Position numbers and translations under genes: made by a program
NCBI GenBank assembly: GCA_964010765.1
Contig: CAXGMD010000006.1
Coordinates: 1,481 to 65,480, forward strand
Origin: an uncultured bacterium
Lineage (GTDB): Bacteria; SAR324; NAC60-12
Direction: 5' to 3'
DNA: 64,000 bases
Shown: piece after piece, positions 789-48,013 of the stretch
Layout of the letters: each line of letters begins with the position of its first letter
Position numbering within the stretch: the stretch's first letter is position 1
The notes under the pieces: generated by a model
Databases searched by the model: none
What the model saw: only the letters and a program-made list of their open reading frames with translations
Told to the model about the DNA's origin: nothing

Positions 789-2159
789 ATGTTCGCTGAT
801 ACTATCGTCGCTATTGCCACACCACTACAACCCAGTGGATTAGGAGTAATTCGTGTCAGTGGTTCTACGGCAATTACCTCGGTAGAAACCATTTTTCAGC
901 CAAGTCATGGTGGAACGGTTGCAGAATCACCGAACAGAAAGCTGAGACATGGTTGGCTGAATATAGAGGGACAGCTGGTTGATGAAGCAATGCTAGTTGT
1001 CATGCGCGGGCCACATTCCTTCACCGCAGAAGATGTGGTTGAATTGCAGTGCCATGGCAGTCCTCAGATGCTCCAGATGGTGTTGCAGCAAATTCTGATG
1101 CTGGGTGTGCGTTTGGCAGAACCCGGAGAGTTCACTCGCCGTGCATTTCTCAATGGACGACTGGACCTGACTCGTGTAGAGGCGATTGCTGACTTGATCC
1201 ATGCAGATTCGCGCATGTCGGTCCTACTCGCAGCCCAACAGCTAAGAGGACGGCTATACGAGACCATTCAGCAACTACAGGAAGAACTCATCCAGATTGC
1301 TTCGCTGATTGAAGCTTGGATTGAATTTCCAGATGAGGACGAAGAATTCACGGGTCAAACTGATTGTGAGCGCAGACTCCAGTCCTTACGCAGCAAATTG
1401 GAAGGACTGTTGCAGAAAGGTAAGCAAGGGCGTCTACTGCGCAATGGTGTGCATGTGGTTCTATGTGGTCGACCAAACGTAGGCAAATCTTCGTTGATGA
1501 ATGCCCTGCTGCGTGAAAATCGCTCGATCGTTACGGAAATTCCAGGTACAACTAGGGATGTAATTGAAGAGTCCTTAGAAATTCACCAAGTGGCTTTTCG
1601 GCTCAGCGATACTGCGGGAATACGGCAAACGGAAGATCTTGTAGAAAAGCAAGGGGTAGAGCGAACAAAAAAGGCTATTGAGCAAGCAGATCTTGTTTTG
1701 TTGCTACTCGACGGTTCTCAGGAGTTACAAGCAGAAGATCAAGAACTATTAGCAGAAGTTGAAGATAAGCCCTCCCTGATTGTGGCTACAAAAGCAGATC
1801 TGTGGGACCAAGAACTGCCGAAATGGAAAGATAGTATTCAATCTCGATGGATTCCATTTTCGGTCCATCAGGTAGGAAAGCTAGAGGAACTGGAAGAAGC
1901 TCTCTACCACAACAGCATTTCAGAAAATGCTCCGCCTTTGGAAGAATCCTGGTTGACAAATCTGCGTCAACAGGCAGCGGTCGAAAAAGTATCGGAGAGT
2001 TTGGAGATATCACAAAATCTTCTTCAGCAGCGGACAGGTGAAGAATTCGTGGCTGCTGAACTGCGGAGAGCCTTAAACGCACTTGGTGATATAGTTGGGC
2101 AAACGACAGCAGATGATTTGCTGAGTCGGGTTTTCGCGGAGTTCTGTATTGGCAAATGA
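789..2159 (+). CDS. mnmE: tRNA uridine-5-carboxymethylaminomethyl modification GTPase MnmE/TrmE
   Basis: 456 aa. G-domain motifs present (GRPNVGKSSL, DTAGIR, ATKADL). Ends in the MnmE-specific C-terminal motif CIGK. Confidence 0.9.
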   Translation: MFADTIVAIATPLQPSGLGVIRVSGSTAITSVETIFQPSHGGTVAESPNRKLRHGWLNIEGQLVDEAMLVVMRGPHSFTAEDVVELQCHGSPQMLQMVLQQILMLGVRLAEPGEFTRRAFLNGRLDLTRVEAIADLIHADSRMSVLLAAQQLRGRLYETIQQLQEELIQIASLIEAWIEFPDEDEEFTGQTDCERRLQSLRSKLEGLLQKGKQGRLLRNGVHVVLCGRPNVGKSSLMNALLRENRSIVTEIPGTTRDVIEESLEIHQVAFRLSDTAGIRQTEDLVEKQGVERTKKAIEQADLVLLLLDGSQELQAEDQELLAEVEDKPSLIVATKADLWDQELPKWKDSIQSRWIPFSVHQVGKLEELEEALYHNSISENAPPLEESWLTNLRQQAAVEKVSESLEISQNLLQQRTGEEFVAAELRRALNALGDIVGQTTADDLLSRVFAEFCIGK

Positions 2160-2562
2160 TAGGCTGCAGCACAGTGATGGAATGTTGTTGCTACAGAAAA
2201 AACGCGCACTGTTGCGGCGATGGGATGTGCTAGCGCAGCAGCAGCTGGCATTGTCACACCTTGACGATGCCTTACCGCTACTAGAGGCAAAAGAAGATTG
2301 TCTGGAGGACCTGCAGCGTATCGACTCACTATTAGAGGATTGGGATCAAAGCTTCCCAACTAAACTAGATGAAATTTTGGAGCCCCAAGGCTTACAGCGT
2401 TTGTTAGAAAAAATCAGTAGAGCTGAGCAGGAATTCGCAAGACGTGTTGCGCAGGAACGTAATGTGACAATTACTGAAATCAAAACCTTGCTCCAGCAAT
2501 TGAGTTATGGTGCGGTGAAAAGCAATCGCCCACAACCACGACGTCGCAAGACTATTTTCTGA
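2149..2562 (+). CDS. Hypothetical protein whose start overlaps the mnmE stop (translationally coupled)
   Basis: 137-aa ORF overlapping the mnmE end by 11 nt. Helical, Leu/Gln-rich, no recognisable motif. Confidence 0.4.
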   Translation: MANDRLQHSDGMLLLQKKRALLRRWDVLAQQQLALSHLDDALPLLEAKEDCLEDLQRIDSLLEDWDQSFPTKLDEILEPQGLQRLLEKISRAEQEFARRVAQERNVTITEIKTLLQQLSYGAVKSNRPQPRRRKTIF

Positions 2563-2572
2563 GGATCATCCA

Positions 2573-3121
2573 ATGCGGCTGACAGTCAATCAGGTAGAGC
2601 ATATTTTGGAGCGTTGGCATCGTCTACGACGTGGCAATCATGTGCATTTTGGTTCTTCTGACCCAACTCGCTTGACCAGCGAAGCACGCCGTGAAGCTCA
2701 GCAATATGTTGCAGCTAACTCAACCGTTGACACTGGAATCACTCCAAGAAATATTTTGGAGCGCATTAGCGACTTCCAGGTCCCAGACCCAGCCATTGAT
2801 TATGCAGAACAGCGTCGAGCAGGACAGTTTCTAGATCCACCTTACATACCATCTATCAGTCCACCCGCCATCCCCAAGCTTCAAGATCGTGTTCGCAGGC
2901 TTCAGGAACTACGAGAACGCAATGCGCAACGGCGCCAGCGGACTATTGAGGACCTCGCCTCGCGCTCTACTATTACCTTAACCACTGAGGTTGTAACAGA
3001 GAATCTGGGCCATTCTGAATCAAAGCAATTACACTCAAATCAGATGGCCAACGGATTGGCTCGTCCTTTCCAGCAGCATGAGCAGCATGTAGAAGGCGTT
3101 GCTTCCCATTCCAAACCGTGA
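2573..3121 (+). CDS. Hypothetical protein
   Basis: 182-aa ORF, 10 nt after the previous stop. Arg/Gln-rich, no recognisable domain. Confidence 0.35.
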   Translation: MRLTVNQVEHILERWHRLRRGNHVHFGSSDPTRLTSEARREAQQYVAANSTVDTGITPRNILERISDFQVPDPAIDYAEQRRAGQFLDPPYIPSISPPAIPKLQDRVRRLQELRERNAQRRQRTIEDLASRSTITLTTEVVTENLGHSESKQLHSNQMANGLARPFQQHEQHVEGVASHSKP

Positions 3122-3741: not shown

Positions 3742-4911
3742 ATGCTGACACTTTCAGAAGCTGCCGAACAACTTGGAATCAGTCGCGCTGCCTTAGATAA
3801 TTGGATCAAGCGCCTTGAAATTGAAAAGAAAAAAGAAGGACGGATTGGGCTCACTGCCAAGGAGGTTGAGCAGATCCGAAAACAGCGGCGTAGCAACTCA
3901 CGCCGACGTGACACCAATACAACTGTAACTAACAGTAGCGGGATAGCCTCAGCTTTTGTTGAACAAGAACTGAAAGAACTCAAACAGTTTCGCGAACAGT
4001 TACAAGGTCTGAGTGAAGAACGCCTGCAATGGCAGAAAGAGCGTTTGCAGTATCTTGAGCGGGACGCGTCCAGCCGAAAAGAACTACAAAGTTGGGAAGC
4101 GCGCTTTGTAGAAACACAGCGTCGTGCAGATTGGTTGCAGGAGCAACTAGATTCCAATAGTCGCGAAAAAACAGGGCTGCTCAAACAAGCAGATCAATTC
4201 CAGCAACTGCTCCTGCAGAAAGAGCGCTCACTACAGAGGATACTGGAAGAAAAACAGGAACTGCAGCAACGATTACACCTGCTGGAAGAACAGGCTACTT
4301 CAGAAACTTCCGAGGTAGAAACTCTGCCAGTTGCTGAGGAACCCTCTTCTGTAGATCATGAAGAAGAACTTCTGATAGAAACAGAGTTCTCTACTTCATT
4401 CTCTATCGAGACAAGTGCAGCAGAGGAAGAGGAACTAGAAAGTCAAGAGGAACTTAATGATACTGAGGAAGTTCCTGAAAATTCTGTGGAACTCGAAGAT
4501 GACGAAGCAGATTTGATGCTTTTCGATGAGCTGGAAGATGATGAAGAAGTCTCTAATGAGTTTTCAGCAGAAGAAGAATCTATTGAAGTTGATATTTTCG
4601 AAGAGATGGCTCCAGTAGAAGCAGAGTCTGCATTAGAAACACCAGCTGCAGATTCCGATGATGTAGAAGACGGATGGGATCAGGAAAAGAAGCGCCAGTT
4701 TTCAGAATTTGCAGACTTGCTTGACGAGTTGGAAGCTCAAGTTGCAAGACGCTACCTGGGGTTTGGAGAGGATCGCCAATCGTTGGAATCCATTGCATTT
4801 GCCCTGAGCATCCCTGTCTCAGAAGCACGTCAAGTAGCTGGTCGTGCTGTCCTAAAAATCCGTTCTTACCATTTGCAACTTCGCCAGTCTGGCCCCTCTG
4901 TTGATGCCTGA
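3742..4911 (+). CDS. Coiled-coil acidic protein with an N-terminal MerR/excisionase-like HTH and a C-terminal sigma-70 region-4-like HTH
   Basis: N-terminus LTLSEAAEQLGISRAALDNWIKR (HTH). A long Q/E/L-rich coiled coil, then an acidic D/E stretch. C-terminus ARRYLGFGEDRQSLESIAFALSIPVSEARQVAGRAVLKIR follows the sigma-70 r4 pattern (R..GF...LE.I....S..ARQ...A..K.R). Confidence 0.5.
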   Translation: MLTLSEAAEQLGISRAALDNWIKRLEIEKKKEGRIGLTAKEVEQIRKQRRSNSRRRDTNTTVTNSSGIASAFVEQELKELKQFREQLQGLSEERLQWQKERLQYLERDASSRKELQSWEARFVETQRRADWLQEQLDSNSREKTGLLKQADQFQQLLLQKERSLQRILEEKQELQQRLHLLEEQATSETSEVETLPVAEEPSSVDHEEELLIETEFSTSFSIETSAAEEEELESQEELNDTEEVPENSVELEDDEADLMLFDELEDDEEVSNEFSAEEESIEVDIFEEMAPVEAESALETPAADSDDVEDGWDQEKKRQFSEFADLLDELEAQVARRYLGFGEDRQSLESIAFALSIPVSEARQVAGRAVLKIRSYHLQLRQSGPSVDA

Positions 4912-7048
4912 TGACTCTTCGCCGGAGCTCTCGCTCTTTCCTCCTCTTGTTGAAACACGTTCCCAATTAGAAAAACTGGCTGAGCTGCTTCAATGGAAGG
5001 ATGCTCCCCAACTGGGCCATTGGCAGGCAACCTTGCAACATGCAGAAGCTAGGCTGCAGCAAGCAAAAGTCCGGATTGCCGTATTGGGTGCTGTCAAATC
5101 TGGTAAGTCCACGCTACTTAATGCCTTGTTGGGGGCAGATCGCCTCCGCCGTGGGGCTGGCATTCTCACGTCGATTGTCACCCGGATTCAGCCTGGGGAG
5201 ATCAGTCGAGCGCATTTGAGATTCAAATCCAAATCGTTACTTGATCGCCAATTTCAAGCTGCCCTAGCTTTCTTACAATCGTCAGATTCATCTTTCCCTT
5301 CCTGCGAACTAGATCACGCCTCAGAACGTCAATCCTTGCTTCATTGGCTGGATGAACAACCTGTTGCAGAAGACAAAGCTCATTTTGGTGAGGAGCGTGC
5401 TTTCCTGAGAGCGTGCTTAGTCGGCTATTCTGAGGCTGCAGGCTATCTTAGTAATTCCACGCGGGTACAAACTTGGTCTGGTGAGGAAAGTGATCAACAC
5501 CAAGCTTGGGTTGAGCAAGACGCTCGGGCAGTTTTTTTGAAAGATCTTCTACTCGAAGAACCAGGTTGGACCTGGCAAGGCACTGAGATTGCGGATTGTC
5601 AGGGGAGCGATTCACCAAACCCTCTCCATTTTGCGCAGGTGCAGGAATATGCTTCACGCAGCAACCTGCTCATTTATGTAATCAGTTCCAGAATTGGCAT
5701 TCGTCAAGCAGACGTGCGCCTCTTGCGTAACCTACATCAGCTTGGCTTGGCAGATCAGATCATCTTTGTAATCAACTTAGATCTCAACGAGCATGAGGAA
5801 CAAGCCGATGTAGATCGCATTACAGAACAGATTCTGCGAGATCTACGTCAATTTGGTTGGCAACAGCCTCACTATTTTACATTCTCAGCGTTGCATTTGT
5901 TGTTGCAACGTAAGTTAGAACTTACAACTCGTGAACAAAAGCAACTCGAATTTTGGCAAAATCACTCCGTTTTTCAGATCAGTGCAACTGCTTGGAAAAT
6001 GTTTCAGGAGGAACTCCATCTAAGGTTGGTACATCAGCAATCACAGACACTACTAGCAGGAGAATGGACACATTGGCAGAGATTGCATCATCAAGTGTCC
6101 GAATTTGTTGAACGGTTACAGGTAACGCTTTCTACGGAGAATCTAGACTGGGAAGAATGGCAAAGTGAACTCCAGCATCGTCAGCGATATTTGCGCTATC
6201 ATGAACAAAATCTGCGGCATACTCTGAAGGGCGGAGAGAAACAGTGGAGGCAGCATATTGACTATGGCGTTCGGGCGTTATTTGACCGCCAAGAAGGCAA
6301 GGTTTGGAGTAGCTTGGATCGATTTCTCAGGCAAGTGGAACTGACGCCACCAAAGGATGACTTCTCACCAAACATACAAAGCATGCTCTGGGTGCAAGAA
6401 GTTCGAGAAAAACTGCTGCGTTGGGTCGTGGACGAAATCAATGTGTCCCTGTTGCCAGAAATAGCAAGATTACGCAGTGAAATAACAATGCTGATCAATC
6501 AAGCTGTAGAACCGTTCTTTGAGATTCTAGACGAACTACAACAAAGAGAGTATCAACTTCATAGCCGATTGCAGAAGGGTTCGTTATCATCTACTGAAAG
6601 TCCTAAAGTATACTGGCAATTTCCAGAGGTTGAACCGATTTCATTTACGACTACGTTGGCGTTTCAAACTCCAGAGCAACTGCGTAGTTGGTTACTTTAT
6701 GGTCAGAGTTGGTTCCGCACCCTTTGGCGTAAGGAGCGAAATCTTCAGGCGGAGTTTCATCAGCAAAGCCAGCGTGAGTTAGAGCGTCAGTTGCGAGAGA
6801 ACTTAGATTTTGATGTGTTGAATTATCAGGAAAACTTAAAATACCGATATCTTTGGTCTGGGACTCAACAACTGCTAGAGACCATTTTGGTTTGTTGGCA
6901 AGAATCAGCTCGAGGTTGCCAAACAGACCTGAGTGGTGTGCTAGAACAATTGGAGAGATTACGCTCTGAGCGAAAGCAACTAATGCCTTTGCTGGCGCAA
7001 TGGCAGAGTAATTGGGAAAAACTCAACATCAGGTTGCCGCCCGAATAG
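4901..7048 (+). CDS. Bacterial dynamin-like GTPase (BDLP family)
   Basis: 715 aa. N-terminal Dynamin_N G-domain: KVRIAVLGAVKSGKSTLLNALLG (P-loop) ... D..G. Long helical stalk. Start overlaps the upstream gene by 11 nt. Confidence 0.7.
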   Translation: MMPDDSSPELSLFPPLVETRSQLEKLAELLQWKDAPQLGHWQATLQHAEARLQQAKVRIAVLGAVKSGKSTLLNALLGADRLRRGAGILTSIVTRIQPGEISRAHLRFKSKSLLDRQFQAALAFLQSSDSSFPSCELDHASERQSLLHWLDEQPVAEDKAHFGEERAFLRACLVGYSEAAGYLSNSTRVQTWSGEESDQHQAWVEQDARAVFLKDLLLEEPGWTWQGTEIADCQGSDSPNPLHFAQVQEYASRSNLLIYVISSRIGIRQADVRLLRNLHQLGLADQIIFVINLDLNEHEEQADVDRITEQILRDLRQFGWQQPHYFTFSALHLLLQRKLELTTREQKQLEFWQNHSVFQISATAWKMFQEELHLRLVHQQSQTLLAGEWTHWQRLHHQVSEFVERLQVTLSTENLDWEEWQSELQHRQRYLRYHEQNLRHTLKGGEKQWRQHIDYGVRALFDRQEGKVWSSLDRFLRQVELTPPKDDFSPNIQSMLWVQEVREKLLRWVVDEINVSLLPEIARLRSEITMLINQAVEPFFEILDELQQREYQLHSRLQKGSLSSTESPKVYWQFPEVEPISFTTTLAFQTPEQLRSWLLYGQSWFRTLWRKERNLQAEFHQQSQRELERQLRENLDFDVLNYQENLKYRYLWSGTQQLLETILVCWQESARGCQTDLSGVLEQLERLRSERKQLMPLLAQWQSNWEKLNIRLPPE

Positions 7049-7110: not shown

Positions 7111-7707
7111 ATGTTACGTTGTTTTTTTGATGTAGACGGAGTGGTGCTAGATTTTGAGAGTGCTTATCTACGTGTGATTAGTGCTTACTTTCAACTGGAT
7201 CTCCCTGAAAATTTTCAAACTACCCGTTGGGATTTCAGCGAACTTTTGACCGAACAACAGCAACTCGAAGGTTGGGAGTATTTTGTCAACAGTAATGCCT
7301 TTCGAGAGTTGAAAAGTTTGGTCCCTGCGCCCAGATTTAACGAGGTTTTTGGGGCATATCCCGTGCATTTCGTGACCAACATCCCGCCTGAACATATGGA
7401 TGCTCGACGCGAGAATCTAAACCAAGTGGGATACCGCTTTGAGTCCGTGCATCCAGGTGGATTTCTCTCGTTCAATGAGCAACCACCACGTACAAAATCT
7501 CAGGTGATTGCTGATCTGGTTCAGGATGGAGAACAGATCCTATTCGTGGATGATCACCCACGGAACTGTGTTGATGTGAAAGAGAACTTTCCCGAGGCTT
7601 GGGTTTGGTTGATGAGCCGACCGTTTAATCAGGATTTTGAACATCCAACGATTCAGCGAGCCAAGCACTGGGAACAAGTTTTAAAGTCCCTTCCTAAAGT
7701 CCCCTAA
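7111..7707 (+). CDS. HAD-superfamily hydrolase-like protein
   Basis: N-terminal FFDVDGVVLDFE (DxDG HAD motif I) and C-terminal FVDDHPRNC (motif IV-like). 198 aa. Confidence 0.5.
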   Translation: MLRCFFDVDGVVLDFESAYLRVISAYFQLDLPENFQTTRWDFSELLTEQQQLEGWEYFVNSNAFRELKSLVPAPRFNEVFGAYPVHFVTNIPPEHMDARRENLNQVGYRFESVHPGGFLSFNEQPPRTKSQVIADLVQDGEQILFVDDHPRNCVDVKENFPEAWVWLMSRPFNQDFEHPTIQRAKHWEQVLKSLPKVP

Positions 7708-7726: not shown

Positions 7727-8707
7727 ATGCTGCCTTCACTCTACCAAATGCTGCGGCAAGTTCTGATATCTCTCACCCTACTAATCGTTGTAATGATTGG
7801 GTTGGCCTCTGCCCAGCAACAAGAGCAACAACAGCAGAACCAGCAGGCTCAACCTGGCAATATGGGTGGCATCTATCGATTGAGTTTTTTTGAATTCGAT
7901 GTGCTGACTTTCCGAGAAGGAAAAGATCATGTTTTCTATCAAATGACTGGTTTCAGAGGCTTTGATGGGGGAAGTGGAGCTCGAAATCTATCGGTAGATT
8001 GGAACTACGAGAAGATGTTGTTAATGGGTGGAGACATTGACGGTCATGAAAAAGTGGAAAGTGAGGTTGAACAAATTCTACATAGCTTACCTCCCTTCTC
8101 AATCGAATATATTGTTCCTTTCCAACTTGGTTTCGCTGAATCTGCGATCAGCGTCATGGGAGGCTATACTCAGACATACTTGACAGATCAGTCTGGTAAA
8201 AATCCACAGAAAGAAAACAACAGTGCGATCTATCCGCTGATTCGACTGCGCTCCCATTACTACATTTTTGGAGGTTCTGTTTACCTGACTGGAATGCCAG
8301 AGCCAAGAAGTACTGATATTTTCTTTGGGATTGGATTGATGCGCATTGAGAGTACTCTCAGGGCAGGAATTAGAAGGGCTTCTATTTTGGGAGATGTAAG
8401 TGAACCTGAACCTTGGGAAACTAGATATAATTTAGGAGGTGAAGCAGTGACAGAATTGAGTGCTTCGCAAGGAGTGGTCTTTTTTCAGCGTGCTGGCATA
8501 ACAGTGAATGGAGAGAATTACGGATTTAACTTAGATTTTCTTTTCACTGGGGATACAGGTGTGATTGACAATCCTTATGCAGATGGGATTGGACCGATCC
8601 CACGTGAGGACTTTAAATATGTGACTTACATGTCGACAGAAGTGCCGGACCGCGTTCACCTACGTGGGGTGTTGATGAGAGCAGCAATCACCTATACCTT
8701 CTACTAG
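7727..8707 (+). CDS. Putative outer-membrane beta-barrel protein (secreted)
   Basis: Signal peptide LISLTLLIVVMIGLASA, a polyQ stretch, and a C-terminal ...ITYTFY aromatic terminus typical of OMPs. Confidence 0.45.
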   Translation: MLPSLYQMLRQVLISLTLLIVVMIGLASAQQQEQQQQNQQAQPGNMGGIYRLSFFEFDVLTFREGKDHVFYQMTGFRGFDGGSGARNLSVDWNYEKMLLMGGDIDGHEKVESEVEQILHSLPPFSIEYIVPFQLGFAESAISVMGGYTQTYLTDQSGKNPQKENNSAIYPLIRLRSHYYIFGGSVYLTGMPEPRSTDIFFGIGLMRIESTLRAGIRRASILGDVSEPEPWETRYNLGGEAVTELSASQGVVFFQRAGITVNGENYGFNLDFLFTGDTGVIDNPYADGIGPIPREDFKYVTYMSTEVPDRVHLRGVLMRAAITYTFY

Positions 8708-9288: not shown

Positions 9289-10572
9289 CTATTTGTGCTG
9301 AATTTTAGGCCAGTAAGTTGAGAAGTCAAAGCTGGGAGAATGGCTGCCGACATGACAGTTCACACAGGCTTGACGAGCATCCAGTGGTGGGTGGTTCAGT
9401 GGATTCTTGAGGTGTTCTTGGGCAGATCCATGACAGTTTTCACACTGCACATTAGCAAGTTGGGGTGTGAGTTGATTGCTGAGAAAGCCTTTCTTTTGAA
9501 ATCCAACAACATGGCACTGCAAGCACTCAGGATCGAAATCCTTACCGACTCTTGTCAGGGTGGCTAACGCATGGCTGTGTCGACTAGATTCCCAACTTTG
9601 ATGAGCTTGAGTGTGGCAGGTGGTACAAGCTGCAGCTCCAACAAATCGTGTTTCCTGTTGCAGTTGCTGCATCCGCTTTAATCCACTCAGGAATAATTGT
9701 TTGACCTCTTGATCATAGTTTGTGAACAGTGGTGTGAGGGGTTCCCAATCAGCAGTGTCCAGACGGAGCCAGCGAACATCTAACTGATCACTCGAAGAGA
9801 AGCCATGATAGAGTCCCTGCCCTTTGGTAGGGATCATCTGTAAGGGCTGAGTTGCGGTTGCAAAGGTTGTGACCTGATTCAATTCATCATCGTTGGTGCT
9901 ACCAACAAGAATTCGATCGAACCAACCGCTCTGCAGAAATCTATCTGCTTCTACAGATGTACCACGGAAGAGCAGCATTCGCTTGCTTCCTGGTTGGCTC
10001 TGGGATTGCCACTGTTGAATCAGTGCATTGCTGACTGGAAGAACGTTGGGTAGATCGTTTTCGTTCTGGTAGAGCAAATTGGGTGTGACGTAGCCCCAGA
10101 TCTCCCAACGCTCTCCACTAACGTTCTGACTGATGACCTGAGGCCAAGGTAAATCGATAGCGTTGCTGAGCAAATAGGGTAAGGAAGTGTCCCAGGTTGC
10201 CTGACCATAGTTCCATTCGTGAGGTCCTGGAAGAATAGCAGCAGGTTTCAGTAATTTCAGCGCCTGTTGAATCAAGTCTAGTTTCAGCTTTCCCTGAGCA
10301 GAGGGCTCGGGAAAATTGTTGCCCAAATCCAGATACAGCAAATCAGAGTGTTCTGAGCGCCAATTACTCAGTGCGGTTCCCCGACGCTGGAGTCCGCCCA
10401 TATCACCTTCCTCTGCACAGCCACAAGGCTTGATCTCACCACGCAAATCACCAGAGACCACTAGATAGGGTTCAGCATGTACCAGAGTTGCCCCAAGTAG
10501 AAAGGTTCCGAGTAGACCAAGCAGGAAGCGAGTACCTCTACGAGAAAGCGAAGAGACGCTGTGCATTTTCAT
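9289..10572 (-). CDS. Secreted metallophosphoesterase/5'-nucleotidase-like domain fused to a C-terminal tetraheme c-type cytochrome
   Basis: Signal peptide, then SGDLRGEIKPCGC...GGLQRRGTAL (calcineurin-like/5'-NT N-terminal pattern). C-terminus has four CXXCH motifs: CTTCH, CLQCH, CENCH, CVNCH. Confidence 0.7.
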   Translation of the reverse strand: MKMHSVSSLSRRGTRFLLGLLGTFLLGATLVHAEPYLVVSGDLRGEIKPCGCAEEGDMGGLQRRGTALSNWRSEHSDLLYLDLGNNFPEPSAQGKLKLDLIQQALKLLKPAAILPGPHEWNYGQATWDTSLPYLLSNAIDLPWPQVISQNVSGERWEIWGYVTPNLLYQNENDLPNVLPVSNALIQQWQSQSQPGSKRMLLFRGTSVEADRFLQSGWFDRILVGSTNDDELNQVTTFATATQPLQMIPTKGQGLYHGFSSSDQLDVRWLRLDTADWEPLTPLFTNYDQEVKQLFLSGLKRMQQLQQETRFVGAAACTTCHTQAHQSWESSRHSHALATLTRVGKDFDPECLQCHVVGFQKKGFLSNQLTPQLANVQCENCHGSAQEHLKNPLNHPPLDARQACVNCHVGSHSPSFDFSTYWPKIQHK

Positions 10573-29771: not shown

Positions 29772-30042
29772 AATCTACTCCATAGATGATTGAGTGTGGA
29801 TTGGTTACAATCGTAACCTCACCAGTAATGCAGTTCATAGCTCAACTGTAAAGAAATTTCAGTACATAGATTTTTTAGAGTACTCAGATTGATTATTTTT
29901 TGGTGGAACATTTTTACCAGGACATCCAACTAGTAAAAATGAGAATATTGTGAATACTATGAATGTTTTGATCTTCATTTCAGGTTTATATTTATGATCT
30001 AAAAATTTTAGTAAAAATGTTCGATGTAAATCTATCCTTCCA

Positions 30043-30552
30043 TCAATATCTACTGACTTTTCTTCCTTGCTGATAAGCCTCAATAGAGGCTTTTAGATCG
30101 TCATATTCATCACAGCCCAGCCAACATAATTTATCTAATTTCTCTAAATTAGCCTTCGCGAGGTCTAGATTGCCTACTGTCAGGAAGAGTTCTCCTTGAT
30201 ATTCCAGAGCCTCCAAGTGTTTGGGATTGATATCAAGTGCTTTTTCATAGTGAATTGCAGAATTTTTCAGGTCATTCATTTTGCGCAACACGTAACCCAT
30301 ATAATTATGAGCATCCGCGTTTCCTGGATTTTTTTCTAATTCTTTCCTCAATAGTGGAATAGCTGCACTGTAGTCAAATTTCTTTATATAGCTGACAGCT
30401 CGCTGATAATCTCTTGATTTTTGTGATGTAAAGTCATCATCTGAACCACCCGCAGCTTGTAGCATCAGCGGTGAGGCACATGTCATCAGTAGAATGACGA
30501 AGACTAAAGTTGAATGAAATAGAGTTTTATTATTTCCGTTAAAATATGACAT
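30043..30552 (-). CDS. Secreted TPR-repeat protein
   Basis: Signal peptide then three TPR-like units (AHNYMGYVL..., AIHYEKAL..., ALEYQGELF...). Low-GC region. Confidence 0.55.
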   Translation of the reverse strand: MSYFNGNNKTLFHSTLVFVILLMTCASPLMLQAAGGSDDDFTSQKSRDYQRAVSYIKKFDYSAAIPLLRKELEKNPGNADAHNYMGYVLRKMNDLKNSAIHYEKALDINPKHLEALEYQGELFLTVGNLDLAKANLEKLDKLCWLGCDEYDDLKASIEAYQQGRKVSRY

Positions 30553-30723
30553 TTTCTTTCTTTTTTACTATTGAATTTGAAGTGGCAATTATTGTTGAAA
30601 AATTTTCATAGGGGTTAAATGAAAGCCAGTTATAATCTTAGTGCATTTTTTGTTGTGGAGTAAAAGCAACTAGAAGTTCGCTCTCACAGCCCACAACTTG
30701 CTCAGCAACTAGGACATTTCGAG

Positions 30724-30969
30724 TTAGAATAACATCCAGCTAGCAGCGCCCATGAATCCAAAACAGATCAAGCCGACCAAGATGGCAGATCGTTTTGCCA
30801 TTTCCTCAGCGTCATTCAATTCCAAAATGTCTGTCCAATGAACGCCATATGATTTGTGCACACCCTTGTGGGGATTTTTCATGAAATTCTCCAGTTGATT
30901 GCTGTATTGATAATCTGCTGATTGAGGACAATAGTTGGCAGGAACAACCTTTTTCAAGCTCTTTGCCAC
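30724..30969 (-). CDS. Small membrane protein (hypothetical)
   Basis: 81 aa with a single C-terminal TM helix (SAILVGLICFGFMGAASWMLF). Confidence 0.3.
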   Translation of the reverse strand: MAKSLKKVVPANYCPQSADYQYSNQLENFMKNPHKGVHKSYGVHWTDILELNDAEEMAKRSAILVGLICFGFMGAASWMLF

Positions 30970-31847
30970 GTAGTATATAAAATTAAAATACTGAAATTAT
31001 TTATTATTTAATTTTAAGAACAAAAGAAAAGAGATTGTGTGAGAAAATTAGTGAGAAATGCAGGCGTTGATAATGATTTTCTCAGGAAACGATGGATCAG
31101 TAGGTTTGCCAACCAGCTAGCATTCCATCGGTAGCTCTTTCGATGTGTGGCTACAGCAGTTGTTTTTGCCTTCTGTTGCTTTGCAGATAGTGAATAATTT
31201 GGCTTTGCGAACCTGGAGAAATGATTTCCTTGGTCGAATGTTATCGAGCTTGTGGACGAACGGAAGAAAATATTTGGAAAAGAATTGTTTGTTTTTCAGC
31301 TCAGCTGTCACTCATAATTGTAAATCAAGTTTTTACCCATTAATTGACCAATTCTATATCCAAGGAAAATTCATGTTTTCTGAGACAGTCTTTATCAATC
31401 CGAAAATTCGCAAAATAGTCAGTGCAATCGTTGTTTATAGTTCTCTGGCCGCAGCAATTGCGTTCCTTGGGTTTCTGTTGATCTTTTTCGAAAATCCACA
31501 GTGAGATAGATTCCAGCTTGCCAGAGTGATCTTGTTAGAATATCAGAGAGACAGATGCTTCTACTTGACCGAGAGCAGCATCGCCGGTAATTGATCCGGA
31601 AAGATTCTTAAGTGATTACTTGGGTGGAAGTCATTTACAGTGAGGAAATATGAGTGTGATCTGCATTGATGAGATTCTTGAGAAAGATCAGCAGCGTCAG
31701 AAAGCGTTGGAACTAGATGAACTGGAGGAGTTGGACGAGTACGAACTGTGGGATTTGCAGGCTGATGAAATTCTCAACGGCTCTGGCTCGGAGATTCTGT
31801 GTTGAGAACAAGATTTCTACAGATGATGCCTGATTGAGATTGGACTG

Positions 31848-32261
31848 GTGATGTCTCATCGTCTAGCGATTGCTTTGCTCCTCACGCTCACCAATCTTGT
31901 GATTACCATGTCGCTTCAAGCCACTCCACTGAAAGACCATCTTTGGAAAAACCGTGTGATCATTACATTCTCTGCATCGGTGAAGGAACCGGAGCGTCTT
32001 GCACTTCAAAAGCAAATGGAAGAGAAAGCCTGTGCATTTATAGACAGAAATCTTGTGCACATAGATCTGCTTCAAGGGTCAGAGGACTTTGACGAGATGA
32101 GCCAACAATTTGCGGTATCAAGCTCAGGATTTCAGTTACTGCTATTGGGCAAAGATGGTGGGGTAAAGTTAAGATCGAGTACTGCCTCTTTAGAAGATAT
32201 TTTCTCCCTGATCGATACGATGCCAATGAGAAGAAGCGAAATGAGAGATGATCAGTGTTGA
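31848..32261 (+). CDS. DUF4174-family secreted protein
   Basis: Signal peptide, then WKNRVIITFSA...LLLLGKDGGVKLRS...IDTMPMRRSEM matches the DUF4174 signature recalled from memory. Confidence 0.5.
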   Translation: MMSHRLAIALLLTLTNLVITMSLQATPLKDHLWKNRVIITFSASVKEPERLALQKQMEEKACAFIDRNLVHIDLLQGSEDFDEMSQQFAVSSSGFQLLLLGKDGGVKLRSSTASLEDIFSLIDTMPMRRSEMRDDQC

Positions 32262-39936: not shown

Positions 39937-40117
39937 GCTGATCCTCTGTGTTAAAATGATGGTTGGTTTAGATCAACTAATTTTTCTAATTGACATATTC
40001 TTATATTTTCAATTTTTTGGCCTTAAATTAAAAAAGAATTTCAGCTAAATTGCTTTGAAAAAAGAATGATCTGCCAACGTGACGAAATGAAATACTAATT
40101 CTAGTTTGAGATGAACA

Positions 40118-40381
40118 ATGAAAGTAATGATGCAAGTGGAATGTAGAGACTGGGATCACTGGAAAAAAGCCTACGATGCTCACGCTCCTGTAAGAGTTGG
40201 ATTTCAACAGGACATCTTTGTAGGTCATGAAGCAGAAAATCCAAACAATGTAGTGTTGATTGTTGAAATTCCTTCTATGGAAGCAATGCAGGAGTTTATG
40301 CAGCGCCCTGATAATGCAAAGGCAATCGCTGATTCAGGAGTGAATGTAGAGAGTATCAAAGTAACTCCTCTTGCAGACTAA
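40118..40381 (+). CDS. Small protein, paralog A of an 87-aa family (see 42050)
   Basis: MKVMMQVECRDWDHWKKAYDAH...MEAMQEF...VTPLAD. Shares a pattern with the ORF at 42050 (M..M.I.C.DW.KA.DA...VG.....MEAM..P....VTP). Confidence 0.5.
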   Translation: MKVMMQVECRDWDHWKKAYDAHAPVRVGFQQDIFVGHEAENPNNVVLIVEIPSMEAMQEFMQRPDNAKAIADSGVNVESIKVTPLAD

Positions 40382-40434
40382 AGAGTCACTACTAAAAACA
40401 GAAATTTTCTCATTTAATCACTGAGGAAAATAGC

Positions 40435-41295
40435 ATGAAAAAGTTTTTCATTGCTCTAGTTAGCATAGTCGTAATTTTATTCGTTGCTGTTGGAGGTGCA
40501 CATTTTTATGGATTACAGAATTTGAGTGCATATCAACTCGATCGATTTACAACAGTAAAAGCTAGTGAATATTCGGTTGCCCTTGAGAGAGGGAAGCATT
40601 TAGCAACCATTAGTGGGTGCAACGGTTGTCATGGGGCAAATTTTCAAGGGAAAGATTTTATAAACGGGGCACCTATTGGATATGTCCCGGCTCCTAATCT
40701 CACCCCTGCTGGACCTGTCGCAAATTATACAGATGAAGATTGGGTGAAGGCTATTCGGCATGGCATAGCGAAAGATGGTAGGGTAATGGTGATTATGCCC
40801 TCAAACCATTATTCGGCCTATGGTGATGATGATCTCGCTGCACTCATTTCTTACATGAAAACATTACCACCCGCTGAAAATAAATTTGGCTCACGAGAAA
40901 TTCAATTTCCTGGATCAATTATTTTTGGAATTCTTGCTTATGATTCATGGCCCGCAAATCAAATTCCTCATGATGAAGTTGGTGGAAAAATAGCACCGAT
41001 TATTGATGAGTCCCTTGAATATGGTCAATATTTGACAAGAATTACAGGGTGTTACGAATGTCATGGAGGGAACTTGGCAGGAAAAGATCCAGACTCCGAA
41101 GGTTCACCTGGTCCGAACATCACTAGAAAAGGCAATCCTGGCAATTGGAATTTCGGGGAATTCAAGAAAGCTATGCAAACTGGTCAAACACCAGAAGGTA
41201 AGACATTAAATCCAGAAAAAATGCCTTGGCCTCATTATGCAGTGATGTCTGATATAGAATTGCGATCGCTGTGGTTGAGTTTAAATTCAATCTAA
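40435..41295 (+). CDS. Membrane-anchored diheme c-type cytochrome
   Basis: N-terminal TM helix. Two heme motifs CNGCHGANFQGKD and CYECHGGNLAGKD, each followed by a candidate Met ligand region. Confidence 0.7.
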   Translation: MKKFFIALVSIVVILFVAVGGAHFYGLQNLSAYQLDRFTTVKASEYSVALERGKHLATISGCNGCHGANFQGKDFINGAPIGYVPAPNLTPAGPVANYTDEDWVKAIRHGIAKDGRVMVIMPSNHYSAYGDDDLAALISYMKTLPPAENKFGSREIQFPGSIIFGILAYDSWPANQIPHDEVGGKIAPIIDESLEYGQYLTRITGCYECHGGNLAGKDPDSEGSPGPNITRKGNPGNWNFGEFKKAMQTGQTPEGKTLNPEKMPWPHYAVMSDIELRSLWLSLNSI

Positions 41296-41540
41296 ATTTA
41301 ACTAACTAACCGGTGACTCAATGTCTTAGCTGGTAAATTAGTTGTGCAATCCTTCAATCTAAGCTTGCAATCTCAATCATGGAGGCCTTCTACCAGATCA
41401 CTAACTCCACACATTATTGATAATTTTTCTTGCTTTTTGGCTACCTTCCAGTCGATTTTTTGTGAGTCAAACTCAAGCTTTCAGTTACGACTGTTTGTGT
41501 CTAAGCTAATTTTTCAAATTTAATTTTCTAAGGCATCACA

Positions 41541-41948
41541 ATGAAAAAGTTTCTAGCCGTTCTTGCCGCTGCAATCATCAATACTCCTGTGTTATTTGCA
41601 GGAGCGCATGTCAATATCCCAATTGATCATCTTGTGGACGGAATGCCTGTTATTTTTATGGTCACCGGGCAAAAGATCACCCCACAGCAACACTCTGAAT
41701 TCAAGACAGCTGTTGACGAATGGTATGCATCAGACTGCTTCATGTCTCAGCAGCACTCAGTTGATATCGTAGTCGATGCTGATGGATCCGTTACCCACGT
41801 TGTACGATGGGCCACTAAGGAAGCATTTCTACGTGATCAAGGAATTCAGTGTGAAGCATTTGAGTCTATGTTTGGCAAGATTGCTCAGATTGGTGGTGCT
41901 GATCTGAAAATGTCTGCAACCACATCGATTGCACCTTCACCGAGATAA
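41541..41948 (+). CDS. Hypothetical secreted protein
   Basis: Signal peptide MKKFLAVLAAAIINTPVLFAGA. 135 aa. Confidence 0.4.
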   Translation: MKKFLAVLAAAIINTPVLFAGAHVNIPIDHLVDGMPVIFMVTGQKITPQQHSEFKTAVDEWYASDCFMSQQHSVDIVVDADGSVTHVVRWATKEAFLRDQGIQCEAFESMFGKIAQIGGADLKMSATTSIAPSPR

Positions 41949-42049
41949 TTTTATTCAGAATCCTATCTGCTTTTTGTTAGCCATAGACCGACAGCTCAAA
42001 TTGGTCAAATGACACTCGCCCTAAAAGTTTTAAATTCAAGGACTCACAA

Positions 42050-45824: not shown

Positions 45825-46126
45825 CTGTTATCCTGAAGAAAAGGTCAGCTCGTCCAGGTGGCAAATCGTGATGAAGCAGGTAGGACAGAAGACTGATTCG
45901 ATGCAGCGCAGATGTCAACTGGTTGATGAGCGGGATTTGCTGAATATCCAATCTGACGATCCAGAGACGGATTCATTTAGAAGACGGATGTTGTGGGTGT
46001 CACGATAGGTGCCACTCAGCCAGTTTGTATGGACGGACTAAAGTGAATTTGACTGGAGGAAAAACCGAGGAATCGTTGGTTGTTTCAGGGAAGAAGAGGA
46101 AGAAGTTGTGATTAAATTCGAAAAAA

Positions 46127-46496
46127 TGGTGGAGGTGGCGAGAGTCGAACTCGCGTCCTGATATGCTTTCCCACGAAGCGCTACAAGCTTAGTCGAAACT
46201 TGTCGTTTTCACAGTCGGTGTCGGCAATCGACCGCCTCACGACTGTACACTTCCAGTTGATCTCATCTGACCGTCAGAAGCCCAGTCAGACCAGCCCAAG
46301 TAAAGGGTTACACCTCAACGGAGGCCCTCGGGCCTACCTCCGCGAGACGCCTACTCAGGCAGCGATTGCTGCGTGAGCCGGAGCGTAGTCGCTGTTGTTT
46401 GCAGCTATAATTTTGATGACCGTATTTACGTGGACGTTCATCACCCACGGCTTGCTCTCAGTGAGTTCCACACCCAGTCGAATACCGGGACACCCC
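46127..46496 (-). ncRNA. ssrA: tmRNA (SsrA), one-piece. Predicted tag ANNSDYAPAHAAIAA (resume codon GCA, stop UGA at 46355-57)
   Basis: Reverse complement begins GGGGGUGUCCCGGUAUUCGACUGGG. It contains GACUAAGCUUGUAG and ends GGACGCGAGUUCGACUCUCGCCACCUCCACCA. These match the E. coli tmRNA landmarks GGGGCUGAUUCUGGAUUCGACGGG, GACUAAGCAUGUAG and the T-arm plus CCA. Acceptor stem has a G3:U wobble. Confidence 0.8.
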
Positions 46497-46685
46497 CACA
46501 ACAGACCTTTTAGACTAGCAGCTTTGTGGATTTGTGCCACTGAAATCATTCAGCTTGTGCGGAAGGGAACCGTCCTTGTTCCTTGGTCAGCACTGGAGTG
46601 AACCTCGGCTCGAGTGGTGTTGTGCAGGTCACTTTGGGGCCTTGGTGTTCCCAACAGAGCACCACGACTTGTGTAGCAATCGGGG

Positions 46686-47543
46686 CTAGGAGGCCACCTC
46701 CTGCAGCGCCTGCACAACGTACTGGGGCAGGGCGAAAGCTCCCTGGTGAATCGCCGGATTATAGTAGCGAGTCTGCAGTTTTGCAGCTTGGAAGCGCTCT
46801 GCCAACGTGCTCAGGGGTACTTGACGATAGGTCGGGTTGTCGCTGCCCCAGGCAAAGGTCATGATGCCCCCGACATAGGTCGGTACTGCTGCGCCATAAA
46901 AAGTGGCATCGGCAAAGATGGGCCGTAGGCGCTGGTAAGTGTCACGCACCTCTTGGAGCTGCATGTAGCAGACGCCGTTCTGGGTTGCCAGGATTCCTCC
47001 CGGCTTGAGGCAGCGCTGGCAGTTGGCATAGAAACCCTTGGTGAACAAGGCTTCTCCTGGACCCACGGGATCGGTCGAATCGGAGATGATCACGTCAAAA
47101 CGAAGTGAGGTCTCCTGGACAAACTGCAGGCCATCGGCAATCACGATCTCTACCCGTGGATCCTGAAAGGCCCCCTGAGAATGCTGTGGCAGGAAACGCT
47201 CCGACATCTCGATCACGGCCTGGTCGATCTCCACCTGCACGACTCGCTTGACGTTCGGATGCCGCACCACTTCTCGTAACATGCCACCATCTCCCCCACC
47301 GATGATCAGCACCTCCGTGGCTTGACCGTGTGCCAATAGTGGCACGTGGGCCATCATCTCGTGATAGATGAACTCGTCAGCCTCGGTTGTCTGGACCACA
47401 CCATCCAGGGCCAGCACTCGACCGAAGCAGGGATTCTGAAAGATGATCAGGTGCTGGTGCTCTGTGCGTTGTTCAAAGAGCACCTCGGTGATCTCCAAGT
47501 GTTGGCTGTAGCCCTTGTAGAGCTTCTCGCTAAATATCTCCAT
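46686..47543 (-). CDS. speE: Spermidine synthase (polyamine aminopropyltransferase)
   Basis: LIIGGGDGGMLREV..VEIDQAVIE (SpeE GGGDGG motif). Start chosen at MEIFSEKLYKGY (47543). The longer upstream ORF is likely spurious. Confidence 0.8.
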   Translation of the reverse strand: MEIFSEKLYKGYSQHLEITEVLFEQRTEHQHLIIFQNPCFGRVLALDGVVQTTEADEFIYHEMMAHVPLLAHGQATEVLIIGGGDGGMLREVVRHPNVKRVVQVEIDQAVIEMSERFLPQHSQGAFQDPRVEIVIADGLQFVQETSLRFDVIISDSTDPVGPGEALFTKGFYANCQRCLKPGGILATQNGVCYMQLQEVRDTYQRLRPIFADATFYGAAVPTYVGGIMTFAWGSDNPTYRQVPLSTLAERFQAAKLQTRYYNPAIHQGAFALPQYVVQALQEVAS

Positions 47544-47985: not shown

Positions 47986-48013
47986 CAGAAACTCCTTGAT
48001 GAGTGTGAACCGT

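What the first reader, a model, noticed from the sequence alone, without database searches (positions are those of the whole stretch)
3742..7048. Translationally coupled pair: double-HTH coiled-coil acidic protein + bacterial dynamin-like GTPase
The 389-aa protein combines an N-terminal MerR/excisionase-type HTH, a long coiled coil, a highly acidic D/E segment and a C-terminal segment matching sigma-70 region 4. Its stop overlaps the start of a 715-aa BDLP-type dynamin by 11 nt. BDLPs usually occur as tandem dynamin pairs. A DNA-binding coiled-coil partner hints at a nucleoid- or membrane-remodelling function that I have not seen described.
Basis: partly seen in the sequence, partly recalled or inferred. 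Interest (0 to 1): 0.55.

Follow-up and report, generated by a model that had tools for sequence, protein, structure and literature searches.

The report
Dynamin GTPase with DNA-binding partner gene
In one narrow lineage of marine SAR324 bacteria, a dynamin-like GTPase gene is always preceded by, and overlaps, a lineage-specific gene for a long coiled-coil protein with a DNA-binding domain at each end, which suggests but does not prove that the two proteins work together.

Summary
ORF A (3742-4911, 389 aa) has four parts: a winged HTH, a 121-residue coiled-coil helix, an acidic disordered linker (54 D/E, 0 K/R) and a sigma-70 region-4 domain. ORF B (4904-7048, 714 aa) is a bacterial dynamin-like protein (BDLP). 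The conserved overlap is 8 nt (ATGCCTGA), not 11 nt.

The sigma-r4 call is just under the Pfam cut-off in this copy. It is still supported: all 8 family members match (best E 1.9e-12), and the top 50 fold matches are all sigma region 4.

The pairing holds in 14 of 14 loci that carry A. However, A exists only in one narrow SAR324 clade, and there the whole mnmE-to-NT5C block is syntenic. None of 77 distant dynamin loci (24-36% identity) has an A-like gene. An exhaustive search of 1.84 billion representatives found only two full-length A clusters.

So B is an ordinary member of a widespread family found without a tandem partner, and A is a clade-specific orphan add-on. My best inference is that A is a RacA-like DNA-binding adaptor that couples the dynamin to DNA. 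A plain transcription factor sharing a compact operon is almost as likely. No physical A-B link has been shown. Interest is moderate.

The parts
3742..4911 (+). ORF A, 389 aa: an orphan protein with an HTH at each end, a coiled coil and an acidic linker, found only in one SAR324 clade
   Evidence: ORF and translation. 87 homologs, nearly all above 80% identical and from SAR324. Only 2 full-length clusters among 1.84e9 representatives. dN/dS 0.22-0.28.
3742..3900 (+). A aa 1-53: winged HTH of the excisionase/MerR (HTH_17) type, nearly invariant across the clade
   Evidence: Pfam HTH_17 at 21.7 bits, family best E 1.5e-5. Model shows strand-helix-helix-strand-helix. Nearly invariant in the alignments. 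Marginal phmmer match to the RacA DNA-binding domain 5i41, E 0.014. dN/dS 0-0.14.
3943..4305 (+). A aa 68-188: one long helix, a presumed dimeric coiled coil of about 18 nm; its Q-rich C-terminal half (aa 121-180) is nearly invariant
   Evidence: AlphaFold helix 68-188 with pLDDT above 95. Invariant columns. Hits to coiled-coil Pfam families among family members.
4297..4686 (+). A aa 186-315: acidic disordered linker whose length varies among orthologs (about 30 to 250 aa), with a conserved island VELEDDEADLMLFDELEDDEE
   Evidence: 54 D/E and 0 K/R. pLDDT below 50. Indel pattern. dN/dS 0.29-0.40.
4681..4908 (+). A aa 314-389: sigma-70 region 4-like four-helix HTH domain
   Evidence: Pfam Sigma70_r4 in 8 of 8 family members, best E 1.9e-12. 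PDB profile hits to RpoD/SigA r4. Foldseek top 50 are all sigma r4. pLDDT about 90.
4904..4911 (+). ATGCCTGA junction: the start codon of B overlaps the stop codon of A by 8 nt
   Evidence: Sequence. The identical octamer is present in L003, L010-L012, L090, L091 and L093-L096. L001 overlaps through GTG or TTG starts.
4904..7048 (+). ORF B, 714 aa: bacterial dynamin-like protein with a GTPase domain (about aa 56-340), a helical neck and trunk, and an aromatic/basic tip at about aa 575-612
   Evidence: Dynamin_N 54.8 bits. 1423 homologs. P-loop GAVKSGKS at 62-69, DCQG at 231-234, invariant N291/D293. Model pTM 0.84. Foldseek matches SynDLP, BDLP and IniA. Tip alignment.

Best explanation
A and B form a clade-specific two-gene module on the chromosome of a marine SAR324 lineage.

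Shown:
- B is a complete bacterial dynamin-like GTPase. Its family is widespread in Desulfobacterota and SAR324 and normally occurs without a tandem partner dynamin.
- A is an orphan protein made of a winged HTH, a 121-residue coiled coil, an acidic disordered linker and a sigma-70 region-4-like HTH.
- A's stop codon overlaps B's start codon (ATGCCTGA) in every locus that carries A.

Inferred:
- A dimerises through the coiled coil. It would then present up to four DNA-binding heads on a rod about 18 nm long with a flexible acidic tether. That shape suits a DNA-anchoring or DNA-bridging adaptor better than a compact transcription factor. Its N-terminal half has the RacA layout: wHTH, short disordered linker, coiled coil.
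- Because B appears to be translated in step with A, A most likely binds B and positions or regulates the dynamin relative to DNA. The nearly invariant coiled-coil segment at aa 121-180 or the acidic-hydrophobic island may mediate the contact, as RacA's coiled coil docks on DivIVA.
- B would bind the membrane peripherally through the amphipathic tip of its trunk, so the pair would link DNA to a GTP-driven membrane-remodelling or GTP-sensing machine.

A is an accessory layer, not part of the dynamin's core mechanism, because the rest of the family works without it.
For: - Domain architecture of A from profiles, structure prediction and fold search.
- Each module is under purifying selection, and both HTHs are strongly constrained.
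- The overlap is conserved across orthologs down to 47-53% identity, including L001 once its mis-called start is corrected.
- 14 of 14 A-bearing loci have B directly downstream.
- A and B are the two fastest-evolving genes of the syntenic block and change at similar rates: A 53/64/81-90% against B 50/63/87-92% identity.
- B has intact GTPase motifs and a BDLP fold.
- B has a family-conserved hydrophobic/basic tip around invariant G600.
- Published precedents: RacA, a wHTH plus coiled coil that docks on DivIVA (PMC4914108); RocS, a DNA-binding domain plus coiled coil plus membrane helix (PMC11500499); CrfC, a nucleoid-positioning dynamin homolog (PMC6374313); RdcA/RdcB, a dynamin homolog with a co-operonic accessory protein (PMC13463826).
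Against: - There is no direct evidence of any A-B contact.
- The pairing is confined to one narrow clade in which the entire mnmE-to-NT5C block is syntenic, so its conservation may be plain synteny.
- Overlapping neighbours also occur between apparently unrelated genes here; mnmE and orf137 overlap by 11 nt.
- All 77 distant family members lack A.
- Both HTH hits are individually below Pfam gathering scores in this copy.
- The RacA similarity is marginal, E 0.014.
- DNA binding by A is itself only inferred from its folds.
- No hydrophobic paddle or transmembrane segment is present in B; the maximum 19-residue Kyte-Doolittle hydropathy of 1.21 falls on the P-loop. Membrane binding is therefore also an inference.
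Confidence: 0.35

Rival explanations
1. A is an ordinary, though unusually elongated, transcription regulator that binds operators through its two HTH types. It sits next to the dynamin only because it was inserted into a compact, co-directional housekeeping operon. The overlap reflects genome compaction, not a protein complex.
For: - Both conserved modules are classical DNA-binding HTHs.
- The whole block is syntenic in the clade.
- The neighbouring pair mnmE/orf137 also overlaps, by 11 nt.
- The dynamin family functions without A everywhere else.
- The closest phage and defence library hits are generic excisionase/regulator HTHs.
Against: - A 121-residue coiled coil plus a 130-residue acidic disordered region between two different HTHs is atypical for operator-binding regulators.
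- No conserved operator-like element was seen in the roughly 50-nt spacer upstream of A in the diverged orthologs.
- Promoter matches are at chance level.
- The exact ATGCCTGA junction is retained down to 64% identity in A.
Confidence: 0.3
2. The dynamin acts as a GTP-sensing switch, as RdcA does, and A is its output. B binds or releases A according to GTP or (p)ppGpp levels. That would control A's access to DNA or to RNA polymerase, because the region-4-like domain of A could dock on the beta-flap or on -35-like DNA, with the acidic linker acting as an autoinhibitory DNA mimic like sigma-70 region 1.1.
For: - E. coli RdcA is a dynamin homolog that works as a GTP sensor together with a co-operonic accessory protein, RdcB (PMC13463826). 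rdcA and rdcB overlap by 4 nt.
- The C-terminal domain of A superposes on SigA r4, including r4/beta-flap chimera structures.
- In the HMMER alignment to RpoD r4, the Arg-Gln pair of the recognition helix is retained as R363-Q364. That this pair corresponds to sigma-70 R588/Q589 is from my own knowledge.
- Some of the weak sigma-factor hits in the exhaustive search have alignments that run from sigma4 back into the acidic stretch before it.
Against: - B is related to RdcA/CrfC only at superfamily level: hhalign 96%, 16% identity.
- A has no similarity to RdcB.
- Nothing shows RNA polymerase binding.
- The positions equivalent to sigma-70 R584/E585 are V/S in this copy (the residue numbering is from my own knowledge).
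- The idea is wholly inferential.
Confidence: 0.12
3. The pair is part of a mobile element or an anti-phage defence system, as with LeoABC/Eleos-type dynamin systems, and A is an excisionase-like or regulator component.
For: - Weak PADLOC LeoA hit for B: 30 bits, N-terminal P-loop region only.
- PHROG excisionase-type hits for A's N-terminus at E 5e-4.
Against: - The hits are generic P-loop and HTH similarities.
- The locus sits among housekeeping genes (mnmE, moaB, NT5C-like, TatD) and is stably syntenic.
- No integrase, repeats or tRNA flank were noticed.
- The dynamin family sits in housekeeping contexts across Desulfobacterota.
Confidence: 0.03

Closest known systems
Nostoc punctiforme BDLP, Synechocystis SynDLP and Mycobacterium IniA (bacterial dynamin-like proteins)
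   Same: B shares the Dynamin_N GTPase domain and the helical neck/trunk architecture. These are its best sequence-profile and fold matches: 2J68 at E 2e-10; 7ZW6 at E 1e-16; 2J69 at TM 0.48-0.50; 6J72 at TM 0.60 on the target.
   Different: Sequence identity is only 11-14%. B has no strongly hydrophobic paddle, only an aromatic/basic amphipathic tip. The G4 motif is unusual: an invariant N-x-D rather than N/TKxD. In this clade B is preceded by an overlapping gene for a DNA-binding-type protein.
E. coli CrfC/RdcA (YjdA) with RdcB (YjcZ)
   Same: It is a dynamin-like GTPase of similar size (742 aa). It has a non-membrane-remodelling role in nucleoid positioning and GTP sensing, and a translationally overlapping non-dynamin partner gene (PMC6374313, PMC6510439, PMC13463826).
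   Different: Similarity is only at superfamily level: hhalign 96%, 16% identity over the GTPase domain and proximal helices. The partner gene lies downstream rather than upstream. RdcB is unrelated to A and has no HTH. CrfC reaches DNA through a clamp-binding motif (41-QLALP); the ELSLF-like N-terminus of B lacks the Gln and is not conserved.
Bacillus subtilis RacA; functionally also RocS and RicO
   Same: The N-terminal half of A has the RacA layout: a winged HTH, a short disordered linker, then a coiled coil. In RacA that coiled coil docks onto another protein's coiled coil to anchor DNA (PMC4914108). The RacA DNA-binding domain is the second-best PDB sequence match to A aa 7-51.
   Different: The similarity is marginal (E 0.014). 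A is twice as long and adds an acidic disordered region and a second, sigma4-type HTH. No DivIVA link is known. RocS ends in a membrane-binding amphipathic helix, which A lacks (PMC11500499).
Sigma-70 family region 4 (domain sigma4)
   Same: The C-terminal 60-70 residues of A match Pfam Sigma70_r4 and superpose on SigA/RpoD r4 structures.
   Different: A has no regions 1.2, 2 or 3, so it cannot be a sigma factor. The domain is joined to a coiled coil and an N-terminal wHTH, and that combination was found nowhere else among 1.84 billion representatives.
YlxM (UPF0122; SP_1288, PDB 1S7O), encoded upstream of ffh
   Same: It is a small sigma4-like HTH protein encoded immediately upstream of a GTPase gene. 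1S7O appears among A's fold matches at rank 40. That YlxM lies upstream of ffh and modulates SRP GTPases is from my own knowledge and was not checked here.
   Different: YlxM is about 110 aa with no coiled coil, acidic linker or second HTH. Its partner is the SRP GTPase Ffh, not a dynamin.

Membership tests
Bacterial dynamin-like proteins (dynamin superfamily, BDLP type), for ORF B | Large GTPase domain matching Dynamin_N with an intact P-loop (G1) and DxxG (G3) | tested here: met
   Dynamin_N scores 54.8 bits against a cut-off of 27. GAVKSGKS at 62-69 and DCQG at 231-234 are invariant across 45 family members.
Bacterial dynamin-like proteins (dynamin superfamily, BDLP type), for ORF B | Canonical G4 motif N/TKxD | tested here: inconclusive
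   No [NT]KxD is present in aa 1-360. In its place is an invariant N291-x-D293 within FVxNLDLNEHE. This is probably a family-specific G4 variant. Nucleotide specificity was not tested.
Bacterial dynamin-like proteins (dynamin superfamily, BDLP type), for ORF B | Helical neck/trunk (stalk) following and flanking the GTPase domain | tested here: met
   The AlphaFold model has pTM 0.84 with long helices at 356-410, 416-460, 489-556 and 614-672. Foldseek matches run the full length of SynDLP, BDLP and IniA.
Bacterial dynamin-like proteins (dynamin superfamily, BDLP type), for ORF B | Membrane-binding paddle at the trunk tip | tested here: inconclusive
   There is no transmembrane-like hydrophobic stretch; the maximum 19-residue Kyte-Doolittle hydropathy is 1.21 and falls on the P-loop. 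The tip (about aa 575-612) is aromatic and basic, with invariant G600 and hydrophobic/basic equivalents across the family. Membrane binding cannot be tested with these tools.
Bacterial dynamin-like proteins (dynamin superfamily, BDLP type), for ORF B | GTP hydrolysis stimulated by oligomerisation, and membrane remodelling | not testable with these tools
   Requires biochemistry.
CrfC/RdcA family, for ORF B | Close sequence relationship to E. coli YjdA | tested here: not met
   BLASTP matches only the P-loop region at 25% identity. hhalign gives 96% probability but 16% identity over aa 9-440. No NCBIfam hit specific to that family.
CrfC/RdcA family, for ORF B | N-terminal beta-clamp-binding motif (QLxLP/F) | tested here: not met
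   B has PELSLFPPL with no Gln. Close homologs vary (GLSLF, GINLF, GIALF), and the motif is absent in P0127 and P0130 and in distant members.
Sigma-70 family sigma factors, for ORF A | Region 4 (-35 binding/beta-flap binding HTH) | tested here: met
   8 of 8 family members match Pfam Sigma70_r4, best E 1.9e-12. The window copy scores 23.1 bits against a cut-off of 24.1. Fold matches.
Sigma-70 family sigma factors, for ORF A | Region 2 (core binding, -10 recognition), obligatory in all sigma-70 family members | tested here: not met
   No Sigma70_r2 or r3 hit at E<=1. The corresponding part of A is a wHTH, a coiled coil and an acidic disordered region. A is not a sigma factor.
RacA-like chromosome-anchoring proteins, for ORF A | N-terminal MerR-like winged HTH joined by a disordered linker to a coiled coil | tested here: met
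   The model shows a wHTH at 1-53, a low-confidence linker at 54-67 and a helix at 68-188. Architecture as described for RacA in PMC4914108.
RacA-like chromosome-anchoring proteins, for ORF A | Significant sequence homology to RacA | tested here: inconclusive
   phmmer E 0.014 over aa 7-51 against 5i41. RacA is not recovered by the full-length family profile at E<=1.
RacA-like chromosome-anchoring proteins, for ORF A | Binding to centromere-like DNA sites and to a polar or membrane anchor protein | not testable with these tools
   Requires ChIP, EMSA and interaction assays.
Tandem BDLP pairs (DynA-type fusion, DLP1/DLP2, LeoB/C, IniA/IniC) | A second dynamin gene adjacent to or fused with the first | tested here: not met
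   No second family member is present in the 64-kb window. The only other hit is an MMR_HSR1 GTPase at 49224-50879(-). No second dynamin appeared among the conserved neighbour clusters of the 80 genome loci. One locus, L008, has an unrelated 508-aa Dynamin_N protein nearby on the other strand.

The most novel reading that the evidence does not exclude
A is a new kind of dynamin adaptor. It would be a dimeric coiled-coil rod with two different DNA-binding heads that physically tethers a membrane-active or GTP-sensing bacterial dynamin to the chromosome or to RNA polymerase. That would give SAR324 a GTP-driven DNA-to-membrane coupling device, for example for nucleoid segregation or positioning, or GTP-gated control of DNA binding. 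Nothing equivalent has been described for any dynamin.
Probability: 0.2. Interest if true: 0.7.

Novelty: new variant of a known kind. Interest (0 to 1): 0.42.

Why it matters
Bacterial dynamin-like proteins are still poorly understood. Recent work (CrfC, RdcA/RdcB) shows they can act away from classical membrane fission and fusion, and through accessory proteins. A dynamin whose dedicated partner carries two DNA-binding domains would add a direct link between a dynamin and DNA, in an abundant but uncultured marine lineage.

The case is limited, however. The partner is a narrow-clade orphan, the wider dynamin family does without it, and no interaction has been shown. For now it is a well-defined, testable hypothesis and a new domain architecture, not a discovery.

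Tried and rejected
- I looked for A-like genes next to distant dynamin homologs. I inspected four neighbourhoods by hand, then ran hmmsearch with the A profile against all ORFs of at least 50 aa in 89 loci. Nothing was found outside the clade.
- I looked for a wider A family with an exhaustive profile search of 1.84e9 representatives. It returned only fragments of the same family, sigma factors sharing r4, or proteins sharing only the HTH. P0229 proved to be an unrelated protein made of tandem HTH repeats.
- I tested the idea that B's N-terminal ELSLF is a beta-clamp motif like that of CrfC. I rejected it: there is no Gln and it is not conserved.
- I tested the idea that B is a CrfC/RdcA ortholog and A an RdcB analogue by sequence. 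I rejected both.
- I ran defence-system and phage library scans. Only generic P-loop and HTH similarity came back.
- The promoter and terminator scan gave chance-level counts and did not delimit the operon.
- I looked for a conserved operator in the spacer upstream of A. None is apparent in the diverged orthologs.
- The apparent 115-nt A-B gap in L001/L002 is a gene-calling artefact. The dynamin frame is open from before A's stop, and the conserved N-terminal peptide is encoded upstream of the called ATG.
- Literature searches for a described HTH or sigma-r4 partner of a bacterial dynamin, or for SAR324 dynamins, found nothing relevant.
- Prediction of the A-B complex was not possible with the tools available.


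Full report
**Observation**

The window carries two co-directional ORFs exactly where stated: A at 3742-4911 (389 aa) and B at 4901/4904-7048 (715/714 aa). A's TGA stop is at 4909-4911. The B frame has a TTG at 4901 and an ATG at 4904. In every relative the ATG is present within the identical octamer ATGCCTGA, while the TTG is not always there; L003 has CGC-ATG. The real overlap is therefore 8 nt, not 11 nt. The organism is a marine SAR324 cluster bacterium, judging from the source names attached to near-identical proteins. The surrounding genes are chromosomal housekeeping genes: mnmE, moaB, an NT5C-like hydrolase and TatD.

**Anatomy of A**

Pfam gives Sigma70_r4 at aa 327-374 (23.1 bits, E 5e-5, gathering score 24.1) and HTH_17 at aa 1-48 (21.7 bits, gathering score 27). 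Both are just below threshold in this copy. Across eight family members spanning 47-93% identity, all eight match Sigma70_r4 (best E 1.9e-12) and seven match HTH_17 (best E 1.5e-5). A family profile finds RpoD/SigA region 4 chains in the PDB at E about 1e-3, aligned over aa 317-375.

The AlphaFold model (32-sequence alignment) shows four parts:
- a small winged HTH at aa 1-53;
- a single uninterrupted helix at aa 68-188 with pLDDT above 95;
- a disordered stretch at aa 190-310;
- a four-helix C-terminal domain at aa 314-382 with pLDDT about 90.

The top 50 Foldseek matches for that model are all sigma region 4 structures, with rmsd about 2 A over about 60 residues and TM on the target of 0.6-0.8.

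The segment at aa 186-315 contains 54 Asp/Glu and no Lys/Arg. Among orthologs it varies from about 30 to about 250 residues, while the flanking modules stay aligned. It holds one conserved island, VELEDDEADLMLFDELEDDEE.

Per-module dN/dS against diverged orthologs is 0-0.14 for the wHTH, 0.17-0.21 for the coil, 0.29-0.40 for the acidic linker and 0.06-0.20 for sigma4. A is therefore a real, constrained gene.

The N-terminal HTH has a marginal sequence match to the DNA-binding domain of the chromosome-anchoring protein RacA (E 0.014). The order wHTH, short linker, coiled coil is the RacA layout (PMC4914108).

**Anatomy of B**

- Dynamin_N scores 54.8 bits.
- The P-loop GAVKSGKS and the DCQG motif are invariant in a 45-member alignment, as is an unusual N291-x-D293 where G4 would be expected.
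- The model is confident, with pLDDT 84 and pTM 0.84.
- The model matches SynDLP (E 1e-16), Nostoc BDLP (TM 0.48-0.50), IniA (TM 0.60 on the target), the Campylobacter DLP pair and the mitofusins.
- The best PDB sequence-profile hit is BDLP 2J68 at E 2e-10.
- There is no transmembrane-like segment.
- The trunk tip (about aa 575-612) is aromatic and basic around invariant G600, with hydrophobic/basic counterparts throughout the family. That fits peripheral membrane binding but does not show it.

**Is the pairing conserved?**

From A's side, yes. Every locus that carries A and has sequence downstream has the dynamin immediately downstream with overlapping reading frames. These are the window, L001/L002, L003, L010-L012 and L090-L096, which makes 14 of 14. 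The apparent 115-nt gap in L001/L002 is a mis-called start: the dynamin frame is open from GTG 7001 or TTG 7010, before A's stop at 7032, and it encodes the conserved N-terminal peptide.

From B's side, no. A genome-wide scan returned 80 loci, of which 77 hold dynamins 24-36% identical to B. They come from Desulfobacterota, other SAR324 lineages, a gammaproteobacterial MAG and a Nitrospiraceae MAG. None has an A-like ORF within 5 kb, even at E<=10, and manual inspection of four such neighbourhoods agrees.

An exhaustive profile search of 1.84 billion cluster representatives found only two full-length A clusters (P0027 and P0087). Everything else was a fragment, a sigma factor sharing r4, or an HTH-only protein.

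Within the clade the entire block mnmE-orf137-orf182-moaB-A-B-NT5C is syntenic. Conservation of the adjacency therefore cannot be separated from general synteny; only the preserved overlap adds information. Overlaps are not rare here either, since mnmE and orf137 overlap by 11 nt.

The dynamin's other neighbours differ by lineage. An NT5C-like gene and an OMP-like gene of about 320 aa follow it in the window clade and also in L006, L007 and L015. A ParA/MinD-type ATPase follows it in 24 Desulfobacterota loci.

**Mechanism**

What is shown:
- B is a complete BDLP that lacks a tandem partner dynamin.
- A is a clade-restricted protein with a new domain combination.
- The two genes overlap, so they are very likely co-transcribed, and translation of B is probably coupled to that of A.

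What is inferred: A dimerises through its coiled coil and binds DNA through one or both HTH types. Its elongated, tethered architecture resembles DNA-anchoring adaptors such as RacA and RocS (PMC4914108, PMC11500499) more than a compact regulator. I therefore favour A as an adaptor that links the dynamin to DNA (confidence about 0.35).

The main rival, at about 0.30, is that A is simply a transcription factor that landed in a compact operon.

A third possibility (about 0.12) is modelled on E. coli RdcA/RdcB, where a dynamin homolog is a GTP sensor working with an accessory protein (PMC13463826). In that model B gates A's access to DNA or RNA polymerase, and the acidic linker acts as an autoinhibitory DNA mimic.

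A defence-system or mobile-element origin is poorly supported.

**Comparison with what is known**

- B is a member of the BDLP class but not of the CrfC/RdcA family. BLASTP matches only the P-loop region, and hhalign gives 96% probability at 16% identity. B also lacks CrfC's clamp-binding motif (PMC6374313).
- A is not a sigma factor, because it has no region 2 or 3. It is unrelated to RdcB.
A dynamin partner with HTH domains did not turn up in the literature searches.

**Verdict**

The dynamin is an ordinary member of a widespread family. The partner is a real orphan with a new architecture, and the association is tight but phylogenetically narrow. I rate it a new variant of a known kind, of moderate interest (0.42). 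The decisive missing piece is any evidence of an A-B interaction or of DNA binding by A.

Noticed in passing
window 2149-2562 (+) and 2573-3121 (+): Two ORFs of 137 aa and 182 aa lie between mnmE and moaB and have no Pfam or NCBIfam match. The first overlaps the mnmE stop by 11 nt. Both are conserved at 51-100% identity in all clade loci, so they are real genes of unknown function that travel with mnmE.
   Followed up: partly
window 7111-7707 (+) and 7727-8707 (+); L006 8826-10424: An NT5C-like hydrolase (55% identity) and a 326-aa protein (34-35% identity) follow the dynamin in the window, and also in L006, L007 and L015. The 326-aa protein has a signal peptide and ends in ...TYTFY, which looks like an outer-membrane protein. 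In those three loci the dynamin is only about 34% identical and A is absent, so these neighbours reach further than A does.
   Followed up: partly
L008 8302-9096 and 23 other Desulfobacterota loci among L016-L089: A ParA/MinD-type ATPase of about 264 aa lies directly downstream of the dynamin, on the same strand, in 24 distant loci. In L008 it is followed by RecX and a second, unrelated 508-aa Dynamin_N protein on the other strand. This hints at a link to chromosome or cell-division functions for the wider dynamin family.
   Followed up: partly
window 9289-10572 (-): [quoted passage not shown] It may be a selenoprotein whose ORF is split by an in-frame TGA.
   Followed up: no
proteins P0226-P0230 from the exhaustive search (not in the window): Large proteins of 849-1722 aa contain 7-10 tandem sigma-region-4-like stretches. 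A 415-aa protein (P0229) is built of about seven tandem HTH_17-like repeats. These are unusual repeat architectures made of HTH modules.
   Followed up: no
window 49224-50879 (-): A 552-aa protein has a C-terminal MMR_HSR1 GTPase domain and only P-loop-level similarity to dynamins. It is not a second BDLP.
   Followed up: partly
window 30001-32000 and 40001-42000, compared with 46001-48000: GC content drops to 0.39-0.40 in two 2-kb bins and rises to 0.55 a few kb further on. This may mark islands or horizontally acquired segments.
   Followed up: no
L098 (E. coli K-12 NC_000913.3 4327135-4330238): The gene known as crfC/yjdA is now annotated rdcA and overlaps its partner gene rdcB by 4 nt. That is a precedent for a bacterial dynamin homolog translationally coupled to a non-dynamin accessory gene.
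   Followed up: yes
L090 (JACLAD010013588.1, 114.8-kb contig): The neighbouring genes are 100% identical to the window, but A is 98% identical and 383 rather than 389 aa. The length difference was not located; elsewhere in the family, length differences fall in the acidic linker. A can therefore differ in length between otherwise near-identical genomes.
   Followed up: partly
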